Shown here: positions 16,718 to 36,100 of the stretch, one piece after another
Position numbering within the stretch: position 1 is the stretch's first letter
Layout of the letters: every line of letters begins with the position of its first letter
DNA from: a virus
Reading direction: 5' to 3' (one strand)
IMG/VR virus record: IMGVR_UViG_3300032291_001296
Coordinates: 1-64,000 of that record
Length of the DNA: 64,000 nt
The notes under the pieces: generated by a model
What the model was told of the DNA's origin: nothing
The model's database searches: none
What the model saw: only the letters and a program-made list of their open reading frames with translations
Program-made: the position numbers and the translations under genes

Positions 16718-16999
16718 ATGGCAAAGTTATTAGGAAATCGTATCTACTTAGAGATACCAAAGAAAGAAGAGAGCAAGCTTATTGTAGATGAAAATACAAA
16801 AGAAGCTTTAGAAAAAGAGATGCTTAAAAAAATGAGCAAGCTTAAAGTACATTCTGTAGGAACAGCTAATATGGAAGTTCAACCAGGAGATGAAGTGTTA
16901 GTAGATCCAGCAGCTTTATCAAAAGCTCCTTTAATCCCTTTATCAGAAGATGAGCAAGTGTTACTTGTTTCTCCATTTGATATTATAATGATTTGGTAA
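16718..16999 (+). CDS. GroES-like co-chaperonin
   Basis: LLGNRIYL, VHSVG, VQPGDEVLV and DII, with GroES size and spacing. Confidence 0.7.
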   Translation: MAKLLGNRIYLEIPKKEESKLIVDENTKEALEKEMLKKMSKLKVHSVGTANMEVQPGDEVLVDPAALSKAPLIPLSEDEQVLLVSPFDIIMIW

Positions 17000-17001
17000 T
17001 T

Positions 17002-17760
17002 ATGGAATATCCTTTTATTAGTTGCAAATGTATAACTTATGGAAGAGTAGAAACTCTGGAGGAAGCTGTTGAAAGCTTCCTTCGTCAAGAGTATCCTGGT
17101 AAGAAAGAACTTATCATAGTTAATGATTACCCTTTACAAAAGTTGATATACGATCATCCAGAGATAAAGATTTATAACATGGATGAAACATTTCCTACAA
17201 TTGGAGATAAAGAGAACTACGCTATAGAGAAATGTTCTGGAGAACTAATTGCTGTATGGGATGATGATGATGTAGCTTTACCTAATCACCTATCTAACAT
17301 AGCTAAGTTCTGGAGACCAGATGCTAATCTTTTACACTGGCAGAATGGTGTGTTCTATAATGAACCTAGTATAACAAACTTAATGGCTCTTGGTAATTCA
17401 GGTATTGTATATAGCAAAAGAGCTTGGGAAGAGATTGGAAGAAGTCCAATTGAGAACGCTGGTGGTGATATGACATTAGTTGTAGCTCTACATAACTTAG
17501 GAAGAGATAAAGTGATATTAGCTGATCCTCCTAATGAAGAATGTTCTTGGTTCTATATGTGGGGTGGTAGAGGATATCACCAATCAGGATTAGGAACAGA
17601 CACTGCAGATAGACCTAATGTTATACAAAGACATAGTGATTACATAGAAGGCTTGAGAAAAAAAGGACAAATCCCTACAGGAGATGTTCATTTAATGCCT
17701 CAATGGAATAAGAACTATATTCAAATGCTAAAAGACTATATCAATGAAAAACATTCATAG
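17002..17760 (+). CDS. GT2-family glycosyltransferase
   Basis: ISCKCITYGR, SFLRQEY, ELIIVND and WDDDD (DxD). Confidence 0.88.
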   Translation: MEYPFISCKCITYGRVETLEEAVESFLRQEYPGKKELIIVNDYPLQKLIYDHPEIKIYNMDETFPTIGDKENYAIEKCSGELIAVWDDDDVALPNHLSNIAKFWRPDANLLHWQNGVFYNEPSITNLMALGNSGIVYSKRAWEEIGRSPIENAGGDMTLVVALHNLGRDKVILADPPNEECSWFYMWGGRGYHQSGLGTDTADRPNVIQRHSDYIEGLRKKGQIPTGDVHLMPQWNKNYIQMLKDYINEKHS

Positions 17761-18226
17761 TACAGCAGTAATTGGTAAAAATGTTACAATAGAGGACGAT
17801 GTTTACATAGGTCCTTATTGTGTTATAGGAATGCCTGCTGAATGGAAAGGTAAAGAAGATGTAGATCAAGGTGTTCTTATAAAAAAAGGAACTAGAATAA
17901 CAGGATTAGTTACAATTGATTCTGGTGTAGAAAAAGTAACTACTATAGGTGAGAACTGTTATCTTATGAAACATTCTCATGTTGGACATGATGCACAACT
18001 TAAAGACAATGTTACATTAAGTTGTGGTGCCAAAATAGGAGGTCATTCTATTATTGAAAACAATACTAACATTGGTTTGAACGCAGTGATTCATCAGAAG
18101 GTAACTGTACCTGAAGGATGTATGATTGGAGCTTCTGCATTTGTTGGTAAAAAATCAACACTTAAACCTTTTCATAAATACGCTGGAGTACCAGTTAAAG
18201 AGTTAGGAACAAATGAGCGACGTTAG
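17744..18226 (+). CDS. LpxA-like left-handed beta-helix acyl/acetyltransferase
   Basis: Hexapeptide repeats, HVGHD, IHQ and AGVP. Confidence 0.88.
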   Translation: MKNIHSTAVIGKNVTIEDDVYIGPYCVIGMPAEWKGKEDVDQGVLIKKGTRITGLVTIDSGVEKVTTIGENCYLMKHSHVGHDAQLKDNVTLSCGAKIGGHSIIENNTNIGLNAVIHQKVTVPEGCMIGASAFVGKKSTLKPFHKYAGVPVKELGTNERR

Positions 18227-18848
18227 AATAACAGTTAATCTCCCTTGTTACGGTAGACCTGAAAGAACCAAGAGATCCATACAATGTATATTGGATCAGG
18301 ATATTAATGGTTGGGAAGCTTTTATAATGGGAGATGCTTGTCCACATTTTCAAAAACTTATAGATAGTGGTTATCTACAATCTATTAAAGAAGAACAAGA
18401 AAAGAAAGGAAATATAATTCACTACTTCAATGCTGAAGTTAATTCAGGAGGATGTGGATATAAATTAACTAATCATGCTATACAGAATGCTACAGGTAAA
18501 TACTTTGTATTCTATGCTAATGATGATGTTATTCTTAATAATCACTTTAGTAATTATCTAGAAATAGAAAAAACCGAACTTGATTATATGTTCTTTAATT
18601 CTTGGATAGATCCTATACGTAGTGCTAGAGACTCAAGACTTGCTCCTAGTGTAATAGGCCATAGTGAAATAATACTCAAGACAGAACTAGCAAAGAAGTT
18701 ACCAGAACATTCAGCAAAGTACGGTCATGATTGGGAATTTATATATGCTATGTCACAACAAGGAAAAGGTGAGAAGTCAAAAAGCCAGATTCTTTCTTAT
18801 AGAGTGATGCATGTACCAAATCTCGGTACAAAAGATAGAATAAATTAA
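18213..18848 (+). CDS. GT2-family glycosyltransferase
   Basis: VNLPCYGRP, ATGKY..ANDD and HDWEF. Confidence 0.82.
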   Translation: MSDVRITVNLPCYGRPERTKRSIQCILDQDINGWEAFIMGDACPHFQKLIDSGYLQSIKEEQEKKGNIIHYFNAEVNSGGCGYKLTNHAIQNATGKYFVFYANDDVILNNHFSNYLEIEKTELDYMFFNSWIDPIRSARDSRLAPSVIGHSEIILKTELAKKLPEHSAKYGHDWEFIYAMSQQGKGEKSKSQILSYRVMHVPNLGTKDRIN

Positions 18849-21303: not shown

Positions 21304-21873
21304 TTATCCAACATTAAAAATAGAAATATTTACAGATGGTGATAATGGTCTTGTTGGATTAGTTCCAGCAGCAGTTGTTAAAAGTCTCATCCCTGCAGAT
21401 CCAGACCACCAATAAAATTTTAAAGATTGTCCAGCTGTTAATGCTATTGTATCTGTTATAGATGCTAATGTTTGATCATTTTGAGCTGTTGATGTAGTGA
21501 ATGTAAATGCTGAATTAGGAACAATCACGTCGTCCAAACTATACCATACAGTCACATTAAGATTTGAGGATCCACCAGTAAATGAAAGTTGCATGTTAGC
21601 AATAAAACAGTAGGTTCCAGCATTATTAACTGTTATTGTATTGTTTGCTAATACAAAACCACTATTGGCCTGTGTTGAATTGATTGCAACTTGGTTAGCT
21701 GTTGTAACTCCACCAGTAGTTTGAGTAGTGGTATCAAAAAAAGTAGCAGAATAAAGACTTGTAGGAGCAGGAATTTTGTTTTCTACAAATTGATCAAGAT
21801 TTAATTCTCCTTTATATCCTTGTGCAGGATTAATTCTTTTTTCCCAAAGAGTAGGTTTAATAAATGTAGGCAT
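21304..21873 (-). CDS. C1q/BclA-like beta-sandwich virion protein
   Basis: ITVNNAGTY..NMQL and L.AG..L.F patterns, similar to an internal domain of the 33197 fibre. Confidence 0.55.
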   Translation of the reverse strand: MPTFIKPTLWEKRINPAQGYKGELNLDQFVENKIPAPTSLYSATFFDTTTQTTGGVTTANQVAINSTQANSGFVLANNTITVNNAGTYCFIANMQLSFTGGSSNLNVTVWYSLDDVIVPNSAFTFTTSTAQNDQTLASITDTIALTAGQSLKFYWWSGSAGMRLLTTAAGTNPTRPLSPSVNISIFNVG

Positions 21874-21874
21874 A

Positions 21875-22159
21875 TTATTCTAAGTTTATTTCAAACGTAA
21901 TAACGCTTGTTGTTTTGATTGACTTACTCATATCCACTCTTATGTGAAACATATTACAAAACTTAAGTATTTCTTCTATAAGCATATTGTTATACTTAGG
22001 AAGACTTGCTGCTATTCTGAATCTATATGAGTTTGTATTCTTTGTAATCTCTAGACTACACAATTCATCTACAGAACTTATTACACCTTCTAGGTGTGCA
22101 AGAAACACTTCATCGTTATCTTGCATCACCTTAGGAAAATGTTTTCTGTTAATCTCCAT
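21875..22159 (-). CDS. Hypothetical protein
   Basis: 94-aa ORF. Confidence 0.65.
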   Translation of the reverse strand: MEINRKHFPKVMQDNDEVFLAHLEGVISSVDELCSLEITKNTNSYRFRIAASLPKYNNMLIEEILKFCNMFHIRVDMSKSIKTTSVITFEINLE

Positions 22160-22584
22160 TACGACAAAGTTAATCTGTATAATGTTTGACTAGCTTCTCC
22201 TGATAGAGATTGAGCTATATTTTCAATGTCTGGCATGTTGTTAGCTTCAGCATACTCTTCTAAGTCTTTAGCAAACTTAACAAGTTCTTTTACCACTTGA
22301 TTAGGCATACCTGCAGAATAGTCTTTTAAAGCATCAATCTTATATGCTCTCACTCTCTTACCAGTGTATCCCATAATCTTCTCAACAATCTCATCTTGGA
22401 AATCACCCACTTTATCATAGATGGTTCCTAACGCTGAATGCTCAGCAAATGATGTAGTTTGAAAATGTAATAAGTGTAGCTCTTCATAGAAGTATGAAAG
22501 CTTTCCAGCTATAGTCTCTAGTGTTAAACTAGAGCTTCCTTTGCTTTCCATCATTTCTTCTGGAAATAGGGATTTTAGTGCCAT
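22159..22584 (-). CDS. Ferritin/Dps-like protein (DUF5856-like)
   Basis: HLLHFQT.SFAEHSALG..YD..QDEIVEK..G and Y.L at the C-terminus. Confidence 0.85.
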   Translation of the reverse strand: MALKSLFPEEMMESKGSSSLTLETIAGKLSYFYEELHLLHFQTTSFAEHSALGTIYDKVGDFQDEIVEKIMGYTGKRVRAYKIDALKDYSAGMPNQVVKELVKFAKDLEEYAEANNMPDIENIAQSLSGEASQTLYRLTLS

Positions 22585-22601: not shown

Positions 22602-22847
22602 TTATGCTGCAGTAGTAGTCGTAGTGGTTGTTGCAGCTCTCGTAGTACTAGTTGTAGTAGTAGGAGCAGCTGTGGTAGTACTAGTTGTAGTTGTTGTATA
22701 ATTACAACATTCTTTAGCATCAATTTCTTGATAGTTACCCACCTTTGGTTTAAATGCTTGTACAATTAAACTACTAGGTACAATACGTCCTGATCCATCA
22801 AAACGTACAAAAGCTTTAAGCTTATTATTGTTATTACTTCTAGCCAT
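22602..22847 (-). CDS. Small protein with a mucin-like poly-Thr tail (paralog A)
   Basis: KAFVRFDGSGRIV...KPKVG..ECCNY followed by Thr runs. Confidence 0.8.
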   Translation of the reverse strand: MARSNNNNKLKAFVRFDGSGRIVPSSLIVQAFKPKVGNYQEIDAKECCNYTTTTTSTTTAAPTTTTSTTRAATTTTTTTAA

Positions 22848-22849
22848 GA

Positions 22850-23053
22850 TTATGTTGTTGTTGTAGTTGTTGTTGTTGGTGCAGCTGTAGTGGTAGTAGT
22901 GGTAGTGTAATTACAGCACTCATATGCTGAAATCTCTTTCCATTTACCAACTTTAGGTTTGTTCTTTCTTAGAATCAAACTTCCTGCAACTATTCTGCCA
23001 GATCCATCGAATCTAACATAAGCCTTTAAAGGTCTTGAATTAATGCTTCCCAT
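22850..23053 (-). CDS. Small protein with a mucin-like poly-Thr tail (paralog B)
   Basis: KAYVRFDGSGRIV...KPKVG..ECCNY-T7-AAP-T8. Confidence 0.8.
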   Translation of the reverse strand: MGSINSRPLKAYVRFDGSGRIVAGSLILRKNKPKVGKWKEISAYECCNYTTTTTTTAAPTTTTTTTT

Positions 23054-23071
23054 GTGTTTTTTAATTTATGG

Positions 23072-24088
23072 TTAATAGTTTAGGTTATATTTGTTTTTGA
23101 TTTCGTTTAGCTTAGTGGCATAGAACCACGTACAATATTTTTTTGATTGTTCATCATTAAGAATCATATCCAAGTTAGGATCTTTTGTAGGATCAGTTCC
23201 CATGTGATACTTTCCTTTGTAGAAAGCTGGATAACCATTACCTGTTTCAGAAACTATTCCTGCATTATGAAAGATGGTATGTGTATTAAGTTTTGATATA
23301 GGATCTGTTGCCCATGCAAAAGCTAATTCAGGAACCACTTTAGTTTCCCCATCTCTTAACCATACATTCCAAAGTACAGCCCACATATCTGCACACCAAC
23401 TTTGAAACCCTGAGTTCTCATCTTTAAAGAATTCTCTATTCACTTTCTGTAAATAGGTTCTTATAAGAATACAATCATTCATCACTTTACTCCAGAAGTT
23501 AGCATCTATATTCTTTAATAGATATTGTGCTCCTCCTGAATGATCATTATTAGCTTCAGCAATTTCTCTGCTGATTCCAACAACACTAGCAATCTCTGCT
23601 AGAACATCTCTACCTTTATATTCTTCCAGTTTTTCTGGAAGTACCTGATTAATCTTACTGTCAAAATAACTAGCATTGATGTAACTGTTTGTATCTGATA
23701 GATAGTTTACATCATCTTCTAAGAACTGATCTACGTTAAACTCCTTCATAAAAAGAATATCAGAGTCACAATAGAAGATTGCTTTCTCACTTAACTCTGG
23801 ATGTAATTTAAAATGTCTCCAAAGAACATATGGTCTTAATACAGGAATGTAGATTGCAACTAATGGATTTAAATTATCATCATCTGTATAGTAATGGAAT
23901 TCAGCTTCTGGATATAGATCTTCTATCTGTTTCCACTTATCTCTATTCTCTCTTCCTTTAGGAGTGAATATAAGATTGATTGCTTTGTCAGAATGTCCTA
24001 TTTCTTTAAGACTTTCCATCCACAGGTTTACTTGCCATGTGTAATAAATATCGCTAGGACAAGCCTGGATAAATTTTAAATCTTTCAT
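23072..24088 (-). CDS. Glycosyltransferase resembling plant HPAT/SERGT1 (GT95/GT96) peptide O-glycosyltransferases
   Basis: YYTWQV, YIPVLRP, CDSDILF (DxD), GGAQY, WCADMWA and IFHNAG. The likely start is ATG 24088, because the track's extension reads the upstream micro-gene in another frame. Confidence 0.7.
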   Translation of the reverse strand: MKDLKFIQACPSDIYYTWQVNLWMESLKEIGHSDKAINLIFTPKGRENRDKWKQIEDLYPEAEFHYYTDDDNLNPLVAIYIPVLRPYVLWRHFKLHPELSEKAIFYCDSDILFMKEFNVDQFLEDDVNYLSDTNSYINASYFDSKINQVLPEKLEEYKGRDVLAEIASVVGISREIAEANNDHSGGAQYLLKNIDANFWSKVMNDCILIRTYLQKVNREFFKDENSGFQSWCADMWAVLWNVWLRDGETKVVPELAFAWATDPISKLNTHTIFHNAGIVSETGNGYPAFYKGKYHMGTDPTKDPNLDMILNDEQSKKYCTWFYATKLNEIKNKYNLNY

Positions 24089-24116
24089 AATGTAGTTGGT
24101 TTTTGTTTTAATATTT

Positions 24117-24287
24117 TTAAATTGTAGTGGTGGTAGTGGTTGTTGGTGCAACAGTTGTTGTTGTGGTGGTAGTTGTATTACCACACTCACAAGATGCAAC
24201 ACATGTTAAATATTGTAACTGCTTAGATATCTGCCAAAGCAAATTAGCTCTTCCACTCCATCCAATCTGTCTACTAGGTATAGCCAT
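24117..24287 (-). CDS. 56-aa protein with a mucin-like poly-Thr tail (not in track)
   Basis: MAIPSRQIGWSGRANLLWQISKQLQYLTCVASCECGN-T8-VAP-T7-I*. The N-terminus is near-identical to the neighbouring 24302-24940 protein. Confidence 0.85.
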   Translation of the reverse strand: MAIPSRQIGWSGRANLLWQISKQLQYLTCVASCECGNTTTTTTTTVAPTTTTTTTI

Positions 24288-24301
24288 TTCTTTTTATATT
24301 A

Positions 24302-24940
24302 TTAGTTATACACTTTGATTTCAAGCAATGTAGCATTTAATACATCATCTGTATTAACACCAGTAGTTATTATTCTACTTTCAATTGTAACTGAATCTGC
24401 TATAATTTGACTAGGATACATAGATATAACTTGTTCTAAATTAACATCATAAAATGTTTCACTAGTTACTGTTGTTTTAGATGCTGTAAATAAGTCATCA
24501 GGAGAATAAGCTATATAGTTTCCAACATTTGAGTATTGAAAAACTATATTACCTAATGTATTTTCTAATACATTAGCTCTAGGAGCTCCTATATTATATT
24601 CTAAAATGCTATCTCCCCAATCATTAGGTGTTGTTCCTGTAGCTATAAATGTTGTTCCTAAATTATTATTAGGTGCACCTATATTTGTAAAGTCTCCAGC
24701 AACTCCACTTCCTCCAGCTGCTATTGTGTATGTAACACCAATAACTGTATCTCCTCCACTTTTAGTATCTGGATCATCTACTCCACTTTGAGTTAACAAA
24801 GCAGTGAACACTTTATATGTAGGTGCATTGTTTACACAAGCATTATATGTTACATTAGTAAGTTGCTCTAATTGTTTAGAGATTTGCCAAAGTAGGTTCT
24901 CTTCTGTTCCCCAACCTATCTGTCTAGATGGTATAGCCAT
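24302..24940 (-). CDS. Putative virion fibre/decoration protein
   Basis: MAIPSRQIGW..NLLWQISKQL N-terminal module, a Y.I..G..DFT.IGA.NN..G..F.ATG tail-repeat-like motif and a beta-rich C-terminus. Confidence 0.6.
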   Translation of the reverse strand: MAIPSRQIGWGTEENLLWQISKQLEQLTNVTYNACVNNAPTYKVFTALLTQSGVDDPDTKSGGDTVIGVTYTIAAGGSGVAGDFTNIGAPNNNLGTTFIATGTTPNDWGDSILEYNIGAPRANVLENTLGNIVFQYSNVGNYIAYSPDDLFTASKTTVTSETFYDVNLEQVISMYPSQIIADSVTIESRIITTGVNTDDVLNATLLEIKVYN

Positions 24941-27039: not shown

Positions 27040-27047
27040 TATCTTTG
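27040..27047 (+). promoter_or_regulatory. Bacteroidota -7 promoter for the multi-domain GT gene
   Basis: TATCTTTG, 18 nt before ATG 27066. Confidence 0.65.
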
Positions 27048-27065
27048 TTTTTAAAAATCAACACT

Positions 27066-30000
27066 ATGCCTTACAGTTTTACCTACTTCAAAGATGAAGT
27101 GAAAGAGTGGTTCCTTGAGAACGTTCCTACTAGTAAAAGAATACTAGATGTTGGTCCTGGAATAGGGACTTATTCAGACTTATTGCGTTCATTAGGATAT
27201 AGAATGGATGCTGTAGAAATCTATGAACCATACATAGAGAAGTATAATCTTAGAACTAAGTATGATAATGTTTTTATAGGAAGCATTGTTACATTTGATA
27301 TTAATGATTATGACTTTATTATTCTAGGAGATGTGTTAGAACATATTCCTACAAACTATGCAAAAGAACTAATCAGAGATATTGTTAGTGCAAAGAAAGA
27401 ATGTTTAGTGGCTATACCATATGAGATGGAACAAGGAGAACATGAAGGTAATATTCATGAGACTCATTACCAACCAGACCTTACACATGAAGTGATGGGT
27501 GAAAGATATCCAGAGCTTACTTGTATATACAGGAATGAATACTATGGCTATTATATGCATACACATATAAAAGAAGAAAAAATGTATGTATTATATGCAA
27601 ATGCATCTTATTATGATGTTGTGTGCATGGCTGTAGAAAGTATTAAGAAGGTAAGTGATGTTCCTGTACTAGTCTATATGCTTGATGATTATAGAGAAGT
27701 ACCTGGTGCATACACTGTATGGTGGAAGTGTGATGTAGAAGACTTACCGAAAGAAGAATATATAGATAGAAATAAGTCTAGTGTATACAAGTTATTGATC
27801 CAAAGACCTCTTATAGTGAAGGATGCTCTTGAAAGATTTGCTAAGACTGTATGTTATGTAGATTCTGATAGTGTGGCTACAGCTAATGTAGATGATATAT
27901 TTGGATGGTATGATGAACAATCTTGCTATCCATATTTCACTGAAGGTATATATGATTATCTATTCATTAATGGAAGAGGTAGTAATGAATTCTCTAGAAC
28001 ATTAGAACGTCCAGCATGTGAGTTATTTGGGGTAGATCAATCTGTTAGAAGAAAATATAGACAGACAGGTTACTTTGTAGCAGGTCAACATACTATTCCG
28101 TTCTTAGATGAGTGGAGTTGGATGTGCAATCACCCAGAGGTATTAAAGAACCCACAATACTATGCTCCTTATCACGAAGAGACAATAGTGAATGTGTTGT
28201 TATGGAAACACAAGTTCTTAGATGGTCTTCCTTATATATACACTAATGCTGGCCTAGATAAGTTTGATAGAGTGTATAATGAAGATAATTGGGGCAAGTA
28301 TTTAGAATCTTGGTTCAAGATACCAGAGAGTGAGGATCGATTGTTCTTCTTACATGGAGAGAAAGATCCTGTTAAAATGTCTAAACTAATGTCTAAACTA
28401 CCTTCAAAAATGTCTAAACCTTTGAGAATATTATTCCTTGCTCCTCATTTATCTACAGGAGGTATGCCACAGTTTCTTCTTAAGAGAATACAAACACTGA
28501 AGGATTACACAGATGTAGAAATAGCTGTTATAGAATATCAATGTCATAGTTTAGACTTTGTTGTACAAAGAAACAAGATAAGAGATCTAATGCCAGCAGG
28601 TAAGTTTGCTACACTATTTGAAAACAAACTAGAACTGTTTGATCACATTAAAGCATTTGAACCAGATATTATCCATATAGATGAAATGTCCGAGAGACTT
28701 GATAGAGATATGATCACTAGATTGTATGCTGATGATAGAAAATATAGAATCATAGAAACATGTCATGATGTATCTTTTGTACCAGACACAAAGATATTTA
28801 TACCAGATGCATTTGCATTCTGTAGCCCTTATCATATGGATACATTTGCTAAGCTTGATGGATATAAACAAGTGATTGAGTATCCTGTTGAGTTTAACTT
28901 CATGGGATGGAATGAGAAAATTGGAGCACAAGCAAATCTTGGAATGGATATAACAAAGAAACATGTTGTAAACATAGGACTTTGGACTAAAGGAAAGAAC
29001 CAGGGAGAAGGACTAGAAGTAGCTAGACAGATGCCAGATGTACACTTTCACTTTGTAGGTAATCAAGCTGGTAACTTCATAGACTATTGGGAACCATTAA
29101 TGGAAAATGTTCCAGAGAATGTAACTATATGGGGAGAGAGAACAGATACAGATGCATTTATGAAAACTGCAGATGTATTTATGTTTAATAGCACATGGGA
29201 ATGTAATCCACTAGTGCTTAGAGAAGCTATCAGTTATGGTAAGACTATTCTTGCTAGAAACCTTCCTCAGTATAAAGATATGTTCACTAAGTATATAACT
29301 AATCTAAATCCTATTATGATTGCCGCACAGATAAGAAATCTTTTAGAATTCCCTGCAAAATATCCTATACCAACTGATAACTTACCAATGGTATTTGCTA
29401 ATAACAATTGGAACTTGTATAAGTATGCAGCGTCTGTTACTCCACAGAAAAACAATATAAATGATTATAACATCATACAGAACTTTGTAGGCCAACCATT
29501 CTTAGAGATAACTGGTACATCTACTAGTGACTTTCGTGTAGAGTTTTATGATGGTGATGTATTAGTACATAGTGATGTAATCAAATGTAACCATTGGATA
29601 AAACTTGCTAGAGAGTATTATACACAGTGGAGAACAGTTGTATATAAAGATGGAGAAAAGGTGTATGATAAACTTCTAGATCTAGAAGGTAAGAGAGTGT
29701 ACATTGCTTTTGAGAGCTCTTCTTTAGGAGATACAATAGCTTGGATACCATATGCATTAGATTTCAAGGTGAAACATAAGTGTGACGTGATTGTAAGTAC
29801 ATTCAAGAACTTCTTGTTTGAAGGTGCATATCCAGAGCTTGAGTTTGTTGATCCAGGGACCAATGTAACTAATCTGTATGCTATGTACAAACTTGGTTGG
29901 TTCTATAATGAAAACAAAGAGCCAGTACTTCCTAACACTATACCCTTACAGCAGACAGCTACAAACATTCTAGGTCTTCCTTATGAAGAAGTCAAACCAA

Positions 30001-30515
30001 GAATTGCATATGAAAAATCACCTGTTGAAGGTATGTATGTAACTATTGCAACTAATAGCACATCTGGATGTAAGTTCTGGACCAGAGAACATTGGCAAGA
30101 GGTAATTAATTACTTACATGACCAAGGATATAAAGTGATAAATGTATCACTAGAAGATAATCCATTTGAGAACTGTCAAGGATTACTTGACAAGTCAATT
30201 GAAAATACTATGCGTGTCATTGATGAAAGCATATTCTTTATAGGATTATCTAGTGGACTTAGCTGGTTAGCATGGGCTCTTGATAAAGAAGTGATAATGA
30301 TCTCTAATTTCACTGAAGCTAATCATGAGTTCCAATGTCATAGACCAGTGAATACAAGTGTATGCCATGGATGTTGGAATGATCCACAATATACATTTGA
30401 TAAAGGAGATTGGGACTGGTGTCCTGTTCATAAAGGAACAGACAGGCAGTTTGAGTGTCAGAAAAGTGTTACACCAAATATGGTGATAGAAGAAATAAAA
30501 AAGCTCCTTAAATAG
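27066..30515 (+). CDS. Multi-domain enzyme: SAM methyltransferase + GT-A + GT4-like GT-B + TibC/Aah-like protein O-glycosyltransferase
   Basis: ILDVGPGIG/GDVLEH; YVDSD; APHLSTGGMP/ECNPLVLREA; SLGDTIAW, FIGLSSGLSWLAWA and VCHGCWND..WCP.H..FEC.K. Confidence 0.85.
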   Translation: MPYSFTYFKDEVKEWFLENVPTSKRILDVGPGIGTYSDLLRSLGYRMDAVEIYEPYIEKYNLRTKYDNVFIGSIVTFDINDYDFIILGDVLEHIPTNYAKELIRDIVSAKKECLVAIPYEMEQGEHEGNIHETHYQPDLTHEVMGERYPELTCIYRNEYYGYYMHTHIKEEKMYVLYANASYYDVVCMAVESIKKVSDVPVLVYMLDDYREVPGAYTVWWKCDVEDLPKEEYIDRNKSSVYKLLIQRPLIVKDALERFAKTVCYVDSDSVATANVDDIFGWYDEQSCYPYFTEGIYDYLFINGRGSNEFSRTLERPACELFGVDQSVRRKYRQTGYFVAGQHTIPFLDEWSWMCNHPEVLKNPQYYAPYHEETIVNVLLWKHKFLDGLPYIYTNAGLDKFDRVYNEDNWGKYLESWFKIPESEDRLFFLHGEKDPVKMSKLMSKLPSKMSKPLRILFLAPHLSTGGMPQFLLKRIQTLKDYTDVEIAVIEYQCHSLDFVVQRNKIRDLMPAGKFATLFENKLELFDHIKAFEPDIIHIDEMSERLDRDMITRLYADDRKYRIIETCHDVSFVPDTKIFIPDAFAFCSPYHMDTFAKLDGYKQVIEYPVEFNFMGWNEKIGAQANLGMDITKKHVVNIGLWTKGKNQGEGLEVARQMPDVHFHFVGNQAGNFIDYWEPLMENVPENVTIWGERTDTDAFMKTADVFMFNSTWECNPLVLREAISYGKTILARNLPQYKDMFTKYITNLNPIMIAAQIRNLLEFPAKYPIPTDNLPMVFANNNWNLYKYAASVTPQKNNINDYNIIQNFVGQPFLEITGTSTSDFRVEFYDGDVLVHSDVIKCNHWIKLAREYYTQWRTVVYKDGEKVYDKLLDLEGKRVYIAFESSSLGDTIAWIPYALDFKVKHKCDVIVSTFKNFLFEGAYPELEFVDPGTNVTNLYAMYKLGWFYNENKEPVLPNTIPLQQTATNILGLPYEEVKPRIAYEKSPVEGMYVTIATNSTSGCKFWTREHWQEVINYLHDQGYKVINVSLEDNPFENCQGLLDKSIENTMRVIDESIFFIGLSSGLSWLAWALDKEVIMISNFTEANHEFQCHRPVNTSVCHGCWNDPQYTFDKGDWDWCPVHKGTDRQFECQKSVTPNMVIEEIKKLLK

Positions 30516-30691: not shown

Positions 30692-32878
30692 TTATCCTGT
30701 TACGGTCCACCCTTTAGCTGTTGCAATTGAACGTGTGCATCCAGCTGCTCCTGTGCAACCTGTTATGTTGATTGTTTTTGATGTTATTGTTGTTAAATCT
30801 GTGAACAATTGATTTAATGCTGTAATTCCTAAATCACAATAAGAAACATTTATTTGTGGTGATGATCCTGACCATTGTCCTGCTCCTGTATTTAATAATC
30901 TTAATGAATTTAATCTGTTAAAATTTGATGTTGTATTTTGACCATTTAATGTTAATGATGAAAAAGGACAACTAAAACTTAATGATGTTATTGAATTCAT
31001 ATAACTATATGTTCCTCCATTAATAGTTCCAGTTACTAAAGGAGTAGCTGTTAAACTTCCTAATTTAGCTAAATTAGTAATAGTTGTTAAATTTGAACAT
31101 CCAAAAAACATAGAGGCTATACTTGTTAATCCTGATGTTTGTGTTGTTGGTAATGTTAAAGTCTTTAAGTTAACACAATTTAAAAATGAACTATTGTAAG
31201 TAGTTAAAGATGCAGATACAGTAGCTGGCATAGTAAGTGTTTCTAAAGAATAACATGAATTGAAAGCGTTACTAAAATCAGTACAAAGAGACATACTTGT
31301 AGGCATTGTGACTGACGTTAAATTATAACAACTTGAAAACATTATGTTTGCTGTAGTTACATTATTCATTGTAGAAGGGAACGTAACAGAAGTTAATCTG
31401 AAACAGGTTTGAAAAGTAGAAGATAAAGAAGTTACAGCTGTTAAACTTGTAGGCATTACTATTGTTTCTAACTTGCTACATCCTGAACACATACTTACCA
31501 TTGTCGTGCAACTATTTTGAGCGTTATTTGGTAATGTAATTGAAGTTAAATTAGAACAGGCATTAAACGTGCTTTGTAAACTTGATATAGTCCATGCAGA
31601 TGGTATTGTAATAGATTTTAAACTAAAACAATTGACAAATGTGGAAAGCATAGTCACGTTTGTTCCAACTGTTGATGGTAATGTAACTGAATTTAATAAA
31701 TAACAACTATTAAAAGTATTGGACATGTTACTTAAATTAGTCATTCCTGATTGAAAAGTAACACTTGTTAAAGAATAGCAGTTTTGAAAAGCTCCTGATA
31801 ATGTACTTGCATTAAAATTTGTTGGAAATAATAAATTTTTTAAAGACGAACACGCTGAAAAAGCAGACACTGCATTATATGCCGCATTAGATGAACATGA
31901 AGATGGAAAATATACATTTTGTAATTGAGAGCAGTTTGCAAAGGCGCTACTAATACTAACTATAGTACTTGGTGATGCAGGAGTAGGTAATGATGTAAAT
32001 TTAACCCATTGCAATGAATTACAATTAGCAAGTAAACTAGTTAACGATGTGCATAAATTTATACTCGGAAATGTTACATTTTTTAAAGAATTACATCCAC
32101 TAAAAGTAGATGTCATAGCGGTACAACTATTTAAAGTTGTAGGAAAAGATACTGTTCTTAAATTAGTACAGTTTTGAAAACTACTTTGTAAACTAGTTAT
32201 TCCTGTTGCATTTGATGGAAATGTTATATCTCTTAAGTTTGAGCAGTTATTTGCCATAAAACTTACATCATTTAATGCAGATGCTGATGTAGGCATTATA
32301 ATCTTATATAGATTAACACAGTTTTGGAACATGTAACCTAGTTGTATAGTCCAATCAACTGTTGAAGGTAGCTTTACATATTCTAAATATTGAAAAGAAC
32401 CTGAAGACGCACTAGTATTAATAGAGCTAAAATAATATATATTAAATGCAGTTGTGTTACAAGTTCCGTTTCCAAAATAAGCTTCTAATAAACCTATATT
32501 ATAGAAACCACCTGATACAGAACGATTAGCTATGTGTTGTGCATTTGTTATTACACAAGTGGCATCTCCATATATTCTAATCTTCCAAGTATTATATCCT
32601 CTTGAACAAGGTGTACCCCCTGTTGAATAAACATGAGATGTAGTTGTAGATGCTGTAGATGAAATAGTATCAGTAACCCCATCTCCCCAATCTATATAAA
32701 TATTTCCTGAACTACGAGTAAATGTTGTAATAATAGAAAATGCTTTTGATCCCTCATCACATACTAAAAATTGCACCTCATTAGGAGTATCAGTAATTGC
32801 TATCCAATCTGAAGGTCTTACCCAATCAGATGGTGTTGCTATAGGTGCTATTGAGTTTATAGGTACGTTAAATGCCAT
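30692..32878 (-). CDS. BspA/LRR-repeat receptor-binding-like protein
   Basis: IDWGDG (PKD-like) N-terminus, many F.NC..L..(I/V).(F/L/M)P repeats and a C-terminal AKGWTV. Confidence 0.75.
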   Translation of the reverse strand: MAFNVPINSIAPIATPSDWVRPSDWIAITDTPNEVQFLVCDEGSKAFSIITTFTRSSGNIYIDWGDGVTDTISSTASTTTSHVYSTGGTPCSRGYNTWKIRIYGDATCVITNAQHIANRSVSGGFYNIGLLEAYFGNGTCNTTAFNIYYFSSINTSASSGSFQYLEYVKLPSTVDWTIQLGYMFQNCVNLYKIIMPTSASALNDVSFMANNCSNLRDITFPSNATGITSLQSSFQNCTNLRTVSFPTTLNSCTAMTSTFSGCNSLKNVTFPSINLCTSLTSLLANCNSLQWVKFTSLPTPASPSTIVSISSAFANCSQLQNVYFPSSCSSNAAYNAVSAFSACSSLKNLLFPTNFNASTLSGAFQNCYSLTSVTFQSGMTNLSNMSNTFNSCYLLNSVTLPSTVGTNVTMLSTFVNCFSLKSITIPSAWTISSLQSTFNACSNLTSITLPNNAQNSCTTMVSMCSGCSKLETIVMPTSLTAVTSLSSTFQTCFRLTSVTFPSTMNNVTTANIMFSSCYNLTSVTMPTSMSLCTDFSNAFNSCYSLETLTMPATVSASLTTYNSSFLNCVNLKTLTLPTTQTSGLTSIASMFFGCSNLTTITNLAKLGSLTATPLVTGTINGGTYSYMNSITSLSFSCPFSSLTLNGQNTTSNFNRLNSLRLLNTGAGQWSGSSPQINVSYCDLGITALNQLFTDLTTITSKTINITGCTGAAGCTRSIATAKGWTVTG

Positions 32879-32882
32879 TGGT

Positions 32883-33185
32883 TTATACTGTTGTTTCTGT
32901 TATTACTAGATTCACTACTATATCAGCTTGTGGAGGGAATTGAGCATAAAATGTTGCTTCTCCTGCTGCCACTCCTATATAAGGAAGTATATTTGCATTA
33001 TATGCTGTTTGATAACTTGCATTTTGAGGTGTTGCTGATACATCAGAATTTGCAGTAATCCATCCTGCATATAATGTATATAAATAATATCCTCCTGATA
33101 AAGTCCAACCTGCAGCAGATAATGTTAGTGATGATACTCTTAAAGGTGTTGATCCTCCTCCAACTGTTACTCCATTTATTTTCAT
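32883..33185 (-). CDS. Small beta-rich fibre-associated protein
   Basis: TLSAAGW motif, located between fibre genes. Confidence 0.6.
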   Translation of the reverse strand: MKINGVTVGGGSTPLRVSSLTLSAAGWTLSGGYYLYTLYAGWITANSDVSATPQNASYQTAYNANILPYIGVAAGEATFYAQFPPQADIVVNLVITETTV

Positions 33186-33196
33186 AATTTTTTATT

Positions 33197-36100
33197 TTAT
33201 AATTCTATCCAAGTATTATCTGGATCAAATCTTATGATGTATAAACCATTGTTTTGACTTCCTGTGTTCCAATAAGTGTATCCAATAAGTCTAACAACTT
33301 TTCCAGCACTAGTTGTTGGTACATCTGAACAATTACCAGCAGACTCTAAATATAAAGGAGATCCCTCATAAGAACTTAGATTAGTAGTAAATGTTGTAGA
33401 AACAAAACCTCTAATCAATACTTCTATAGGTTCATTACCTGCAGTTGTATTAGTTAAACAAACACCTAACATATTTATTGATTCTTCATTAGCAGAATCA
33501 TGTTGTGCTACATCCCACTTACCTCCATATAAACTTCTATATATTATTTGTCCTTTTGAAAGTACAGCATTTGAATATTCATATGCTAATATTTCTCCAG
33601 TTGCTACATAAGTTGTATTAGCTCCCCATGATTGTAAATCACTTAATACTGAAGTAACACCATCATACACTTCATAATTAATAGGTGCTACTACAGCTCC
33701 AGCTACAAATGAATTAACAGGAGCATTAAAAATACAATTAGCTTCTGCAACTATTCCTCCAGCACCATCTGATGTCAACACTTGATTGTCTGAACCAGAT
33801 ACAGTAGGAGATACACCACTAGTACCTGATGTACCATTAGTACCATTAACACCAGCAGTACCTGACGTACCTGTGGTACCTGAACTACCTGATGTACCAC
33901 TAGACCCACTTGATCCTGCAGTTCCACTTGTACCAGTTGTTCCAGAAGTACCAGTCGTACCACTGCTTCCAGAGGTACCTGATGTTCCGTTTGTTCCATT
34001 CACTCCAGAACTTCCTGAGGTGCCAGAACTTCCTGATGAACCTGAGCTTCCACTAGTACCAGATGTACCACCAGAACCATTAGTTCCACTTGTACCTGAA
34101 GAACCTGAAGAGCCCGAAGTTCCTGTAGTACCTGATGTAGCAGAAGATCCTGAACTACCACTTGTACCACTTGTTCCTCCTGTACCATTAGTAGCAGAAG
34201 TTCCACTTGTTCCAGTAGTTCCCGAGGTACCATTAATACCTGAGCTTCCAGAAGTACCACTAGTTCCTCTAGATCCAGATGTACCTGAAGTTCCTGTTGT
34301 ACCAGAAGTACCAGATGTAGCACTCGTACCTGAGGTACCAGTTGTTCCAGATGTACCTGTTGTTCCTGAAGAACCTGAGGTAGCTGAAGAGCCACTTGTA
34401 CCTGATGTACCATTACTTCCATCTCCTCCTGTAGCACCATCAAGGTTGACAGACCATGTACAATAGAATCCTGATCCCACAGTTCTTGTAGGAGCAGCAA
34501 ATACTAATACCCCTGTACTAGGATTATAAGATACTACTTCACACTCTTGGTAATTAGTAGCATCGTATGCTATTATGATAGATTGAGCTACTGTGTACGC
34601 TAAGTTAGTTCCTACAGTGATTGTACCACTATTACCTAACGTAAAACATGTAGATGATGTTGTTGCAAATTTATCTCCAGAATATCCCGAAGTACCTGAT
34701 GTTGCAGAGCTTCCACTACTTCCTGAAGAACCACTAGTTGCACTTGTACCAGAGCTACCACTTGTAGCTGATGTACCTGAAGTACCACTCGTTGCAGAAG
34801 TACCAGATGTACCTCCTGTAGAAGATGTTCCAGAAGTTCCTGCTGAACCATTTGTTCCACTTGAACCACTACTTCCACTAGTACCATTTGTTCCATTTAA
34901 TCCTGAGGTACCAGATGTACCTGTACTTCCACTAGTTCCACTAGAACCACTTGTTGCAGAAGACCCAGAAGTTCCACTAGTTGCGGATGTACCTGATGTA
35001 CCACTAGTTCCATTAGTTCCATTAATACCATTAGTACCGTTGATTCCTGATGTTCCTGAACTTCCACTAGTAGCTGAAGTTCCAGATGTACCAGAGGTTC
35101 CACCTGTACCATTAGTACCTGATGTGCCTGAAGAGCCACTAGATCCAGTTGTACCACTAGTTCCTGATGATCCACTAGTAGCAGATGTACCAGAGGTTGC
35201 AGAAGTACCTGATGTTCCAGTAGTACCTGACGTAGCACTAGTACCAGAAGATCCTGATGTACTACCTACAGAAACACCTATTTGTTTTGTTACAACAATA
35301 ACTGAAGGTGCTGCAGGTGCAGTGTATGGAGAAGATTTAGCAGCCTTAGCTGTTAATTGAACATTTGCATTTGAAGAAGAAAATACAATCTCTAAATAAT
35401 CATTAGCATTTAAATTTAATATAAAGGATACATACGGTAGTTGTAACACACCATCTGATGTAATACTTAAGTATGAATCTGTTCTGACAATATCGTTACC
35501 ATTTTTTCTGATCCATATTTCTAAGTCTGTACTTGCTCCACCAGTTTTTTCTACTTGTAGAGAATATCCAAATTCATATATACCAGCATATGGATATCTA
35601 ATCTGTTGACCAAAATCTAAGATGATACCATTATCTATTTCTGTTGTATTATATGTAACTACTGTTGGAGTATTTGCTCCTGTGATAACTTGATTTCCAT
35701 TATCAGAGTAACTTGCATACCAGTTAGCTATAGCAGCTCCAGATGAACCATTTAGTCCACTAGATCCACTACTACCAGCAGTACCACTTGTCCCTGATGT
35801 TCCTGTAGTACCAGAAGTTCCGCTACTACCAGATGTGCCTGATGATCCACTTGTGCCCGAAGTACCTGTTGTTCCACTAGAGCCACTTGTTCCATCAGAT
35901 CCAGATGTTCCACTAGATCCGCTAGTACCTGTAGTACCTGAGCTCCCACTAGTTCCTGTTGTGCCACTACTTCCAGATGTTCCATCTGTTCCAGAAAATC
36001 CACTTGTACCACTAGAACCACTAGTCCCTGTTGTACCTGATGTACCTGTTGATCCAGAGCTTCCTGAGGTTCCACTTGATCCACTAGTTCCAGTAGTTCC

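What the first reader, a model, noticed from the sequence alone, without database searches (positions are those of the whole stretch)
22602..24940. Phage 'mucin' cassette: HPAT/SERGT1-like O-glycosyltransferase flanked by three poly-Thr-tailed micro-proteins
Seen: a 338-aa GT (23072-24088) sits between three small co-oriented genes with the same tail design, Cys pair-N-(T/S)7-9-[AV]AP-(T)n. They are 22602-22847, 22850-23053 and the unannotated 24117-24287. Established: plant hydroxyproline O-arabinosyltransferases (GT95) and peptidyl-Ser galactosyltransferases (GT96) carry, in order, Y..WQ, Y..LNRP, DxD and W..EM[YW] motifs and glycosylate hydroxyamino-acid runs. This ORF has YYTWQ, YIPVLRP, CDSD and WCADMW in that order. 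Inference: a dedicated enzyme-substrate module that O-glycosylates Thr brushes on small virion decoration proteins. The resulting mucin-like coat could shield the particle, aid adhesion or mimic host surfaces. Virion glycosylation is known in some mycobacteriophages and giant viruses. I am not aware of a described bacteriophage module that pairs this enzyme type with purpose-built mucin tags.
Basis: partly seen in the sequence, partly recalled or inferred. Interest (0 to 1): 0.92.

Follow-up and report, generated by a model that had tools for sequence, protein, structure and literature searches.

The report
Phage sugar-transferase beside poly-threonine proteins
An uncultured ~103-kb phage, probably of a Bacteroidota host, encodes an unnamed sugar-adding enzyme wedged between small proteins that end in threonine-only tails; the same enzyme sits next to threonine-tailed head, tail or fibre proteins in unrelated phages, so these viruses very probably sugar-coat their own particle proteins, though nobody has measured this.

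Summary
Five tightly packed minus-strand genes lie at 22602-24940. A 338-aa enzyme is flanked by three micro-proteins (81, 67 and 56 aa) that end in Thr7-9 runs; no other ORF in the 64-kb window has such a run.

The enzyme models confidently as a GT-A glycosyltransferase (pLDDT 96.8) with an invariant DxD. Its nearest solved folds are glycogenin, the Skp1 galactosyltransferase, LgtC, UGGT and GlyE. It matches no Pfam family, only phrog_4417 (unknown function). The HPAT/GT95 link is weak and sub-threshold.

Comparative evidence for poly-Thr as the acceptor is strong:
- 79 of 80 close relatives keep poly-Thr genes within 2 kb (38-fold local enrichment).
- Thirteen of 14 distant cultured-phage records checked have Thr tracts on the adjacent head, tail or accessory protein.
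- Tail-protein homologues in four phages with no such gene beside them lack the tail.

The micro-proteins are not a closed cassette. They are minimal members of modular families: a conserved N-terminal module, a Cys pair, a poly-Thr linker and an optional binding domain. The genome has at least seven more poly-Thr proteins outside the window.

No glycosylation has been measured. This scan has flagged the same system before on other DNA. I found no paper describing it.

The parts
23072..24088 (-). 338-aa cytoplasmic GT-A glycosyltransferase, phrog_4417, no Pfam family; proposed initiating Thr-O-glycosyltransferase
   Evidence: phrog_4417 E=4.5e-55. No Pfam or NCBIfam hit. AF2 pLDDT 96.8. GT-A fold: glycogenin Z 14.2, Skp1 AgtA Z 14.1, LgtC 13.7, GlyE 13.2. 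Invariant D108xD110, Q229, H274, K291. Relatives are fused to GT2, GT6, GT7C, GT29, GT32 and methyltransferase domains.
22850..23053 (-). 67-aa family-B micro-protein: 48-aa conserved module ending ECC, then T7-AAP-T8
   Evidence: Family alignment A3 has 13 invariant positions. dN/dS 0.14. Longer relatives carry Peptidase_S74, LRR_5, DUF1566 or ice-binding-like C-terminal domains.
22602..22847 (-). 81-aa family-B micro-protein (second paralogue) with three Thr runs
   Evidence: AF2 model: residues 10-45 form a small three-stranded beta module (pLDDT about 87) and the Thr tail is disordered. 65% identical to a Virus NIOZ-UU157 protein.
24117..24287 (-). 56-aa family-A micro-protein: N-terminal module MAIPSRQIGW..LLWQISKQL, Cys pair, T8-VAP-T7
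   Evidence: 74 family-A genes were found across the window and the 80 related loci, 51 with poly-Thr starting near residue 37. dN/dS 0.20.
24302..24940 (-). 212-aa family-A paralogue: same N-terminal module joined to a globular C-terminal domain, with no Thr run of the kind defined above
   Evidence: Relatives (for example in L023 and L008) have a Thr linker between the same module and the same 'YKVYTALL' domain.
27045..30515 (+). 1156-aa multi-domain protein (methyltransferase, unassigned middle region, GT4-type GT-B, GT9-like); candidate glycan-elongating or modifying enzyme
   Evidence: Pfam Methyltransf_23, Glycos_transf_1 and Glyco_transf_9. Its link to this cassette is inferred only.
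16993..18848 (+). GT2, hexapeptide acyltransferase and GT2 genes; further candidate glycan-building enzymes
   Evidence: Pfam. The link is inferred only.

Best explanation
The 338-aa gene encodes a soluble, metal-dependent GT-A glycosyltransferase of an uncharacterised phage family (phrog_4417). During late infection, in the cytoplasm, it most likely transfers a sugar from a nucleotide-sugar onto the hydroxyl groups of poly-threonine tracts in phage proteins. This would start a mucin-like O-glycan. The other phage-encoded enzymes may extend or modify it: the 1156-aa methyltransferase/GT4/GT9-like protein, two GT2 enzymes and an acyltransferase. The three flanking micro-proteins are minimal members of modular gene families. 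Each has a conserved 35-48-aa N-terminal module ending in a Cys pair, then a poly-Thr tract. In relatives a swappable binding domain often follows. I infer that the N-terminal module docks the protein to the virion and that the glycosylated Thr tract forms a stiff, protease-resistant stalk or brush. The 'headless' forms in this window would contribute only the glyco-brush. Shown here: the fold, the DxD, the gene order, the conservation, the cross-phylum co-occurrence and one gain/loss covariation. Inferred: the acceptor, the sugar, virion attachment and the biological role.
For: (1) Enzyme. GT-A fold with pLDDT 96.8. Best solved matches are retaining GT-A enzymes, several of them protein-glycosylating. 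DxD, Q, H and K are invariant. Natural fusions to seven other GT families and to methyltransferases fit a multi-step glycan assembly line. The model shows no signal peptide or membrane segment.
(2) Locality. Only three ORFs in the window have Thr runs and all flank the enzyme. In 80 related loci, 79 have co-oriented poly-Thr ORFs within 2 kb. The density is 0.66 per kb near the gene against 0.017 per kb farther away.
(3) Distant lineages at 26-35% enzyme identity (14 cultured-phage records checked). The adjacent or nearby gene product carries a Thr tract in 13 of the 14:
- Chryseobacterium MA9V-3;
- Enterococcus phiFL1A, on the tail protein, with a second T7-coding run at the 3' end of the capsid gene;
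- Lactococcus 1706, on the tail protein, with a further T7-coding run at the 3' end of the gene annotated head maturation protease;
- Lactobacillus Semele and Staphylococcus F1;
- Arcanobacterium TPWB06, Lacticaseibacillus R9.1 (both the gene upstream of the enzyme and a downstream gene, probably capsid and tail tube but annotated hypothetical, end T7-9SHV), Clostridium FA88 and Lactobacillus 521B with TTV(K/A)P repeats;
- Enterococcus 9183 is only weak: the adjacent head protein has no tail.
(4) Reverse test. Of 80 IMG/VR loci picked only for a run of nine Thr codons, 5 contain this enzyme family. In each it lies immediately downstream of the poly-Thr gene on the same strand. For comparison, 77 of 50,697 cultured-phage records carry the family.
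(5) Covariation. Tail-protein homologues at 50-60% identity in Javan47, 315.6, phiJL-1 and ATCC8014 have no such gene between the tail-protein and chaperone genes. They stop at the conserved PGE.TG.. motif. phiFL1A has the enzyme gene there plus a 28-residue Thr/Ser tail.
(6) Virion link in this genome. A 1510-aa protein matching 'virion structural protein' phrog_37948 (E=1.7e-102) ends in a Thr tail. A 397-aa protein with a Thr tail lies two genes downstream of the capsid gene. Family-B relatives carry the tail-fibre chaperone domain Peptidase_S74.
Against: No experiment shows any glycan. The fold does not reveal the acceptor, and the nearest folds also include a lipooligosaccharide enzyme (LgtC) and a polysaccharide enzyme (WbbM). 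Most poly-Thr viral loci (75 of 80) lack this enzyme within the locus, so poly-Thr does not need it. Seven or more poly-Thr proteins of this genome are encoded far from the enzyme, which weakens the idea of a dedicated cassette. Some family-A and family-B members have no Thr tract. Enterococcus phage 9183 has the enzyme next to a head protein without a Thr tail. The 80 close relatives are not independent observations. Nothing shows directly that the three micro-proteins are in the virion.
Confidence: 0.6

Rival explanations
1. The poly-Thr tracts are plain extended linkers or tails that are not modified by this enzyme. The glycosyltransferase acts on something else, such as host envelope polysaccharide, teichoic acid, phage DNA or a small molecule. 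It sits here only because this is a variable accessory region.
For: The fold cannot assign the acceptor, and LgtC (lipooligosaccharide) and WbbM (polysaccharide) are among the top matches. 75 of 80 poly-Thr viral loci lack the enzyme in the locus. Many poly-Thr proteins of this genome are encoded far away.
Against: Adjacency recurs in unrelated genome architectures and host phyla, inside head and tail modules rather than in lysogenic-conversion or DNA-metabolism modules. Tail and enzyme are present or absent together in homologous tail modules. There is no membrane segment of the kind found in Gtr-type serotype converters. The small temperate phages that carry the enzyme show it inside the structural module, not among nucleotide-metabolism genes.
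Confidence: 0.15
2. The enzyme does glycosylate the Thr tails, but the three micro-proteins are not virion parts. They would be soluble or released glycopeptides, for example decoys, adhesives released at lysis, or primers or carriers for glycan assembly. Alternatively, their N-terminal modules are recognition leaders for the enzyme rather than virion anchors.
For: No PHROG or Pfam structural-family hit for any of them. The N-terminal module is tiny. The invariant Cys pair directly before the tract is unexplained.
Against: The same modules head proteins with tail-fibre chaperone, LRR, lectin-like and propeller domains in relatives. The genes sit in the late block next to lysis genes and other appendage-type genes (LRR and collagen-like proteins). 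In Firmicute phages the tags sit on annotated tail proteins, and Thr-coding runs lie at the 3' ends of capsid-region genes.
Confidence: 0.15
3. The micro-ORFs are decaying, 'headless' remnants left by rapid domain shuffling in a hypervariable fibre-gene cassette, and have no function of their own.
For: The region is highly variable in gene number and size, 42-688 aa, among 66-93% identical relatives.
Against: Short forms are the norm for family B: 79 of 110 are under 100 aa, with a median of 73 aa. The modules have dN/dS of 0.14-0.20. Reading frames and stops are maintained across relatives, and Thr codons are mixed as expected under selection on the protein.
Confidence: 0.08

Closest known systems
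Virion glycosylation of mycobacteriophages Che8, Corndog and Myrna (Freeman et al. 2023, Cell Host Microbe, PMID 37329881; known to me through citing papers PMC12619734 and PMC12363180; the paper itself is not held)
   Same: Phage-encoded glycosyltransferases modify the phage's own structural proteins. The glycans sit at the C-termini of capsid and tail-tube subunits. That matches where the Thr tails sit in the Firmicute phages that carry this enzyme family.
   Different: The hosts differ (Bacteroidota and Bacillota phages). The enzyme family here is unnamed (phrog_4417, no Pfam). The acceptor is an explicit homopolymeric Thr tag or linker. In this phage the tags sit on modular appendage proteins and micro-proteins. 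Nothing has been measured here. Homology to the Che8 or Corndog enzymes was not tested.
Retaining GT-A enzymes of the GT8 type: glycogenin, LgtC, GlyE of the pneumococcal serine-rich-repeat-protein pathway, Dictyostelium Skp1 galactosyltransferase AgtA (GT77), UGGT (GT24)
   Same: Same fold (Z 13-14, about 220-245 aligned residues). A DxD follows a beta strand, and there are invariant His and Gln positions downstream. Several of these enzymes act on proteins or protein-linked glycans in the cytoplasm.
   Different: Sequence identity is only 9-13%. No Pfam GT8 hit. TM-score is about 0.45. The phage family has about 80 extra residues, mostly helical insertions. Donor and acceptor are unknown.
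Plant hydroxyproline O-arabinosyltransferases (GT95, Pfam PF23452 HPAT) and peptidyl-serine galactosyltransferase SERGT1 (GT96)
   Same: Weak sequence echoes: PF23452 is the most frequent Pfam hit among relatives (2 of 63, E=0.012), and one ESM-Atlas neighbour cluster has it on 10% of members. The enzyme logic is shared: they glycosylate hydroxy-amino-acid runs in extended structural proteins.
   Different: Below every threshold for the window protein and for 10 cultured-phage homologues. The plant enzymes are Golgi membrane proteins, whereas this one is soluble. The acceptor would be Thr rather than Hyp or Ser. No solved HPAT or SERGT1 structure appeared among the matches.
Mucin-type O-glycosylated Ser/Thr/Pro linkers (animal mucins, fungal and bacterial cellulase linkers, giant-virus fibrils)
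   Same: Tandem T7-9 units separated by (A/V)AP. The tracts lie between folded domains or as terminal brushes. Glycosyltransferases are co-encoded.
   Different: Here the context is a bacteriophage assembling in the bacterial cytoplasm, and the enzyme is not a GT27 ppGalNAc-transferase.

Membership tests
GT-A fold nucleotide-sugar glycosyltransferases | Single Rossmann-like alpha/beta/alpha nucleotide-binding domain | tested here: met
   AF2 model pLDDT 96.8. 108 chains with Z>=8; among the rows listed these are mostly GT-A enzymes, plus related nucleotidyltransferases. Foldseek gives 276 PDB matches at E<=0.001, led by glycogenin.
GT-A fold nucleotide-sugar glycosyltransferases | DxD metal/diphosphate-binding motif at the end of a core beta strand | tested here: met
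   D108-S-D110 directly follows strand 103-107. It is invariant in alignments A1 and A2.
CAZy GT8 (glycogenin/LgtC type) | Sequence membership (Pfam Glyco_transf_8) | tested here: not met
   No Pfam family at E<=1 for the window protein. None among 63 + 76 + 10 relatives.
CAZy GT8 (glycogenin/LgtC type) | DxD plus a downstream His as metal ligands, and a conserved Gln/Asp near the anomeric carbon | tested here: inconclusive
   H274 and Q229 are invariant. Residue-level superposition on glycogenin or LgtC could not be extracted.
HPAT / GT95 and SERGT1 / GT96 | Match to Pfam PF23452 at or above its gathering score (23.9 bits) | tested here: not met
   Searches gave no hit. Only 2 of 63 relatives reach E=0.012. 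A profile-profile test was not possible because no HPAT sequences were on hand.
HPAT / GT95 and SERGT1 / GT96 | Ordered motifs Y..WQ, Y..(N/L)RP, DxD, W..(E/D)M(Y/W) | tested here: inconclusive
The phage motifs are present and conserved.
HPAT / GT95 and SERGT1 / GT96 | Membrane-anchored Golgi enzyme acting on Hyp or Ser of extensin-type motifs | tested here: not met
   The model is a globular protein that starts with a core strand at residue 4 and has no membrane segment. The candidate acceptors are Thr runs.
PHROG phrog_4417 (unknown function) | Profile match over the full length | tested here: met
   E=4.5e-55, residues 4-321 against profile positions 1-287 of 293.
Phage virion O-glycosylation systems (mycobacteriophage type) | Phage-encoded glycosyltransferase gene or genes | tested here: met
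Phage virion O-glycosylation systems (mycobacteriophage type) | Glycan chemically detected on virion proteins and dependent on the phage enzyme | not testable with these tools
   Needs mass spectrometry or glycan staining of virions and an enzyme-gene knockout.
Phage virion O-glycosylation systems (mycobacteriophage type) | Homology of the enzyme to Che8 gp108-110 or Corndog gp38 | not tested
   No actinobacteriophage other than Arcanobacterium TPWB06 appeared among the 77 tblastn hits. The Che8 and Corndog sequences were not compared directly.

The most novel reading that the evidence does not exclude
phrog_4417 enzymes are a previously unrecognised family of polypeptide threonine O-glycosyltransferases that read a portable, homopolymeric poly-Thr 'glyco-tag'. 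Phages of at least three bacterial phyla append this tag to capsid, tail-tube, fibre and micro-decoration proteins. This would give a widespread, genetically transferable way to build mucin-like coats on virions in the bacterial cytoplasm. In this phage lineage the tag doubles as the stalk of a rapidly shuffling set of display proteins: anchor module, glyco-stalk, swappable binding head.
Probability: 0.5. Interest if true: 0.85.

Novelty: new variant of a known kind. Interest (0 to 1): 0.7.

Why it matters
According to the papers I could read, phage virion glycosylation has been shown experimentally only for a few mycobacteriophages. There it alters antibody recognition. If this enzyme family really glycosylates poly-Thr tags, then:
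- Virion sugar coats would be common in phages of lactic acid bacteria, enterococci, staphylococci, clostridia and aquatic Bacteroidota. The family has 768 clusters at 50% identity and 2806 proteins in the 90% database.
- A short genetically encoded tag plus one soluble enzyme would be a simple tool for cytoplasmic O-glycosylation of recombinant proteins.
- Glycan coats could affect the stability of dairy and therapeutic phages, their adsorption to mucus or particles, and their immune clearance.
- The anchor/stalk/head families offer a model for how phages diversify surface-binding appendages.

The hypothesis can be tested directly with cultured phages that are already in collections.

Tried and rejected
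- HPAT/GT95 membership: PF23452 was searched in the phage's own genome (nothing rang, controls included), in the window protein and in 10 cultured-phage homologues. Only two sub-threshold hits appeared among 63 relatives. I therefore do not file the enzyme under GT95/96.
- PDB sequence searches with the protein and with the profile gave nothing meaningful.
- NCBIfam gave nothing.
- The search for related loci with the 63-sequence alignment failed because no stretch was conserved enough. With the distant representative P0228 it found nothing in viral contigs.
- Complex prediction (enzyme plus 81-aa protein) could not be reached in three tries. No result exists.
- The fold search of the small family-B module found only its own relative in Virus NIOZ-UU157 and nothing informative.
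- The promoter/terminator scan was uninformative: promoter-like sites did not exceed shuffles, and there is no convincing terminator inside the cassette.
- Literature searches for a description of this enzyme/tag pairing found none. The Freeman 2023 paper is not held.
- A look for nucleotide-sugar genes in the plus-strand block found only a RecA and two proteins with no solved relative.
- DNA glycosylation and serotype conversion were considered and ranked low. The enzyme sits inside head and tail modules of small temperate phages and has no membrane segment.
Full report
**1. What is there**

The window is the first 64 kb of a 103,353-bp IMG/VR virus record, about 89% complete. GC content is about 33%. 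At 24940-22602 on the minus strand five genes are packed with gaps of 2-28 nt:
- a 212-aa protein (24302-24940);
- a 56-aa protein (24117-24287);
- a 338-aa protein (23072-24088);
- a 67-aa protein (22850-23053);
- an 81-aa protein (22602-22847).

The three small proteins end in runs of 7-9 Thr separated by (A/V)AP, directly after a Cys pair. No other ORF of at least 35 aa in the window has such a run. The Thr codons are mixed.

**2. The enzyme**

The 338-aa protein has no Pfam or NCBIfam match. It matches phrog_4417, 'unknown function', at E=4.5e-55.

The family is large. There are 2806 proteins in the 90%-identity database and 768 clusters at 50% identity. An alignment of 63 members at 30-50% identity keeps D108-x-D110, Y80, Y136, Q229, F257, H274 and K291 invariant.

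AlphaFold2 gives a very confident model (pLDDT 96.8, pTM 0.93). It is a GT-A fold. The best solved matches in the full-library alignment are:
- glycogenin, Z 14.2;
- the Skp1 alpha-galactosyltransferase, Z 14.1;
- LgtC, Z 13.7;
- UGGT, Z 13.4;
- WbbM, Z 13.3;
- GlyE of the pneumococcal serine-rich-repeat-protein pathway, Z 13.2;
- PBCV-1 capsid-glycosylating A64R, lower, at Z 10.9.

Foldseek agrees, with glycogenin at E=5.6e-7 and TM about 0.45. Among viral models, the nearest beyond its own family are GT8-like enzymes of giant viruses.

Longer family members are natural fusions with GT2, GT6, GT7C, GT25, GT29, GT32, GT61 and methyltransferase domains. That is the pattern of multi-step glycan assembly lines. 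The model has no membrane segment or signal peptide, so the enzyme should act in the cytoplasm.

**3. Is it HPAT/SERGT1-like?**

Only faintly. PF23452 (HPAT) is the most frequent Pfam hit among relatives, but that means 2 of 63 at E=0.012. An ESM-Atlas neighbour cluster has the family on 10% of its members. The window protein, its own genome and ten cultured-phage homologues give nothing. I could not run a profile-profile test or search AlphaFold DB. The honest description is 'GT-A, GT8-like fold, own family, possible remote kinship to GT95'.

**4. Are Thr tracts the acceptor? Comparative tests**

(a) Close relatives. In 80 IMG/VR loci at 66-93% enzyme identity, 79 have co-oriented poly-Thr ORFs within 2 kb. 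The density is 0.66 per kb near the enzyme and 0.017 per kb beyond, a 38-fold difference. These loci are related to one another, so they show locality rather than independence.

(b) Distant lineages. tblastn finds the family in 77 cultured-phage records: Lactobacillus, Enterococcus, Staphylococcus, Lactococcus, Clostridium, Lacticaseibacillus, Levilactobacillus, Chryseobacterium, Arcanobacterium and unnamed 'Bacteriophage sp.' records. I inspected 14 of these records. In 13 of them the neighbouring gene product carries a Thr tract:

| Phage | What carries the Thr tract |
|---|---|
| Enterococcus phiFL1A | Tail protein ends NGTTTTTSTTTTTTSSTTTTTTTQASSK, and the enzyme gene starts at its stop codon. 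A second T7-coding run lies at the 3' end of the capsid gene |
| Lactococcus 1706 | Tail protein ends in T10. A further T7-coding run lies at the 3' end of the gene annotated head maturation protease |
| Lactobacillus Semele | Two small upstream proteins are largely Thr tracts |
| Staphylococcus/Mammaliicoccus F1 | Tail protein ends in T9, and the next protein is half Thr |
| Arcanobacterium TPWB06 | Tail protein ends in T9, and the next protein is rich in Thr runs |
| Lacticaseibacillus R9.1 | The gene upstream of the enzyme and a downstream gene (probably capsid and tail tube; both annotated hypothetical) both end T7-9SHV |
| Clostridium FA88 | Upstream protein (probably the tail tube; annotated hypothetical) ends VTTTTIAPTTTTSTSQV |
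| Lactobacillus 521B | Upstream Ig-like protein ends in TTV(K/A)P repeats |
| Chryseobacterium MA9V-3 | Two upstream proteins with long Thr/Ser tracts |
| Enterococcus 9183 | Weak case: the adjacent head protein has no tail, and the tail protein has only short Thr runs |

(c) Reverse test. I pulled 80 IMG/VR loci solely for a run of nine Thr codons. Five contain the enzyme family. In each it lies immediately downstream of the poly-Thr gene on the same strand. The family occurs in only 77 of 50,697 cultured-phage genomes, so this is a very large enrichment. It also shows that most poly-Thr viral proteins do without this enzyme nearby.

(d) Gain/loss control. Homologues of the phiFL1A tail protein at 50-60% identity occur in Streptococcus phages Javan47 and 315.6 and in Lactobacillus phages phiJL-1 and ATCC8014. 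In those phages the chaperone gene directly follows the tail-protein gene, with no enzyme gene between them. The proteins stop at or a few residues (up to about 19) after the conserved PGE.TG.. motif, with no Thr-only tail. phiFL1A has 28 extra Thr/Ser residues and the enzyme gene at exactly that point.

**5. What the micro-proteins are**

They belong to paralogous families defined by N-terminal modules.
- Family A has MAIPSRQIGW..NLLWQISKQLE.L..V and a Cys pair. It includes the 56-aa and 212-aa proteins.
- Family B has LKA(F/Y)VRFDGSGRIV..SLI...KPKVG.W.EI.A.ECC. It includes the 67-aa and 81-aa proteins.
- A third module, MRRC..YEIVTVYYPT.C, appears in relatives.

Across the window and the 80 related loci there are 74 family-A and 110 family-B genes. 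Poly-Thr starts right after the module, at about residue 37 or 50, in 51 and 98 of them respectively. Lengths range from 42 to about 690 aa.

After the Thr linker, relatives carry various binding-type domains:
- Fib_succ_major lectin-like domains, BspA-type LRRs and a DUF5122 propeller;
- among 466 longer family-B proteins, ice-binding-like, DUF1566/Lcl_C, LRR and the tail-fibre intramolecular chaperone Peptidase_S74.

The modules are under purifying selection, with dN/dS of 0.14 for B and 0.20 for A. The family-B module is predicted to be a small three-stranded beta unit (pLDDT about 87) with a disordered Thr tail.

Short forms are the norm for family B: 79 of 110 are under 100 aa. The window's 'headless' proteins are therefore a maintained state, not debris. 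My reading is an anchor module, a Thr stalk and an optional swappable head. This is a hypervariable set of virion appendages, and the stalk is the glycosylation target.

**6. The tag is genome-wide**

Outside the window the same genome has at least seven more poly-Thr proteins at 67.7-83.7 kb. One is a 1510-aa protein matching 'virion structural protein' phrog_37948 (E=1.7e-102) that ends APTTTTTTTS. Another is a 397-aa protein two genes downstream of the major capsid gene.

The phage also encodes a 1156-aa methyltransferase/GT4/GT9-like protein and a GT2/acyltransferase/GT2 trio. There is ample capacity to elaborate a glycan. The 'cassette' is thus the core of a larger system rather than a closed unit.

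**7. Mechanism, with status**

Shown here:
- a soluble DxD GT-A enzyme;
- co-oriented, tightly packed genes;
- conserved association with Thr tracts across phyla;
- covariation of tail and enzyme in one tail-module family.

Inferred:
- the enzyme transfers the first sugar to Thr hydroxyls of the tracts in the cytoplasm before or during assembly;
- other phage enzymes extend the glycan;
- the products sit on the virion as stalks or brushes that stiffen linkers, resist proteases, and shield or promote adhesion.

Unknown: the donor sugar, the linkage, the role of the invariant Cys pair, and where the modules dock.

**8. Known, or new?**

The closest described system is mycobacteriophage virion glycosylation (Freeman et al. 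2023, cited in PMC12619734 and PMC12363180). It involves a different host group, its enzymes were not compared with this family here, and the citing papers I read mention no poly-Thr tag. Eight full-text searches found no description of this enzyme/tag pairing. Absence from the held library is not proof.

This scan has flagged the same system many times on other DNA: 127 notes in at least 88 genomes, several followed up with the same reading. Those are unchecked AI notes, not independent evidence.

What this window adds:
- the modular anchor/stalk/head architecture;
- the headless micro-proteins;
- the reverse test;
- the tail-module gain/loss control, which I reproduced myself.

**9. Verdict**

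It is a new variant of a known kind. Confidence in the glycosylation mechanism is about 0.6, and virion attachment of the three small proteins is less certain. Tools that were closed or unreachable are listed under Tried and rejected.

Noticed in passing
G000 contig, 67718-83726 (outside the window; loci L086, L211): At least seven further poly-Thr proteins. They include a 1510-aa virion structural protein (phrog_37948) with a C-terminal Thr tail, two ~500-aa proteins with up to six Thr/Ser tracts between Cys-rich domains, and a 397-aa Thr-tailed protein two genes downstream of the major capsid gene (genome 86147-87709).
   Followed up: partly
window 22602-24287 and alignment A3: An invariant Cys pair (ECC in family B, C..GGC or CEC in family A, C....C in a third family) sits directly before every poly-Thr tract. 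Its role is unexplained; it could be a disulfide, a metal site or an enzyme recognition element.
   Followed up: no
window 21304-21873: A 189-aa protein has an N-terminus (MPTFIKPTLWEKRINPAQGYKGELNLDQF) that recurs on a 383-aa Gly-X-Y collagen-like protein in related locus L039. This suggests a further anchor-module family. It has a weak SusE/F-like Pfam hit (E=0.0019).
   Followed up: no
window 22159-22584: A DUF5856 protein (phrog_858, annotated 'starvation-inducible transcriptional regulator') is encoded directly downstream of the cassette in the same late-strand block. Its role there is unclear.
   Followed up: no
window 27045-30515: A 1156-aa polypeptide joins methyltransferase, GT4-type and GT9 (heptosyltransferase-like) domains. 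The GT9-like end could be a protein O-heptosyltransferase, as another first-reader note suggests. This was not tested here.
   Followed up: partly
window 30692-36982: A 728-aa BspA-type LRR protein and a 1261-aa protein with 13 stretches matching the collagen-repeat profile (Pfam Collagen E=3.8e-76) lie next to the glyco-genes. Both are candidate appendages.
   Followed up: partly
window 12857-13939: A bacterial-type RecA (E=8e-83 to mycobacterial RecA in the PDB; weaker to E. coli RecA) is encoded in the plus-strand replication block. It is much closer to cellular RecA than to phage UvsX.
   Followed up: no
window 42206-55498: A single 4430-aa ORF is followed by 1580-, 862-, 1125- and 778-aa ORFs on the minus strand. 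These are giant structural-type genes and were not examined.
   Followed up: no
L091 (Lacticaseibacillus phage R9.1) 1382-2431 and 4839-5438: Two proteins flanking the enzyme gene (probably capsid and tail tube; both annotated hypothetical) carry the same C-terminal tag, T7-9 followed by SHV. This looks like a portable cassette.
   Followed up: no
L060:11652-13718 and L072 (717-aa ORF): Some relatives encode proteins with 18-20 tandem Thr7-9 units of (T)n-x-x-P. These are true mucin-like domains of more than 300 residues, followed by a DUF5122 propeller.
   Followed up: partly
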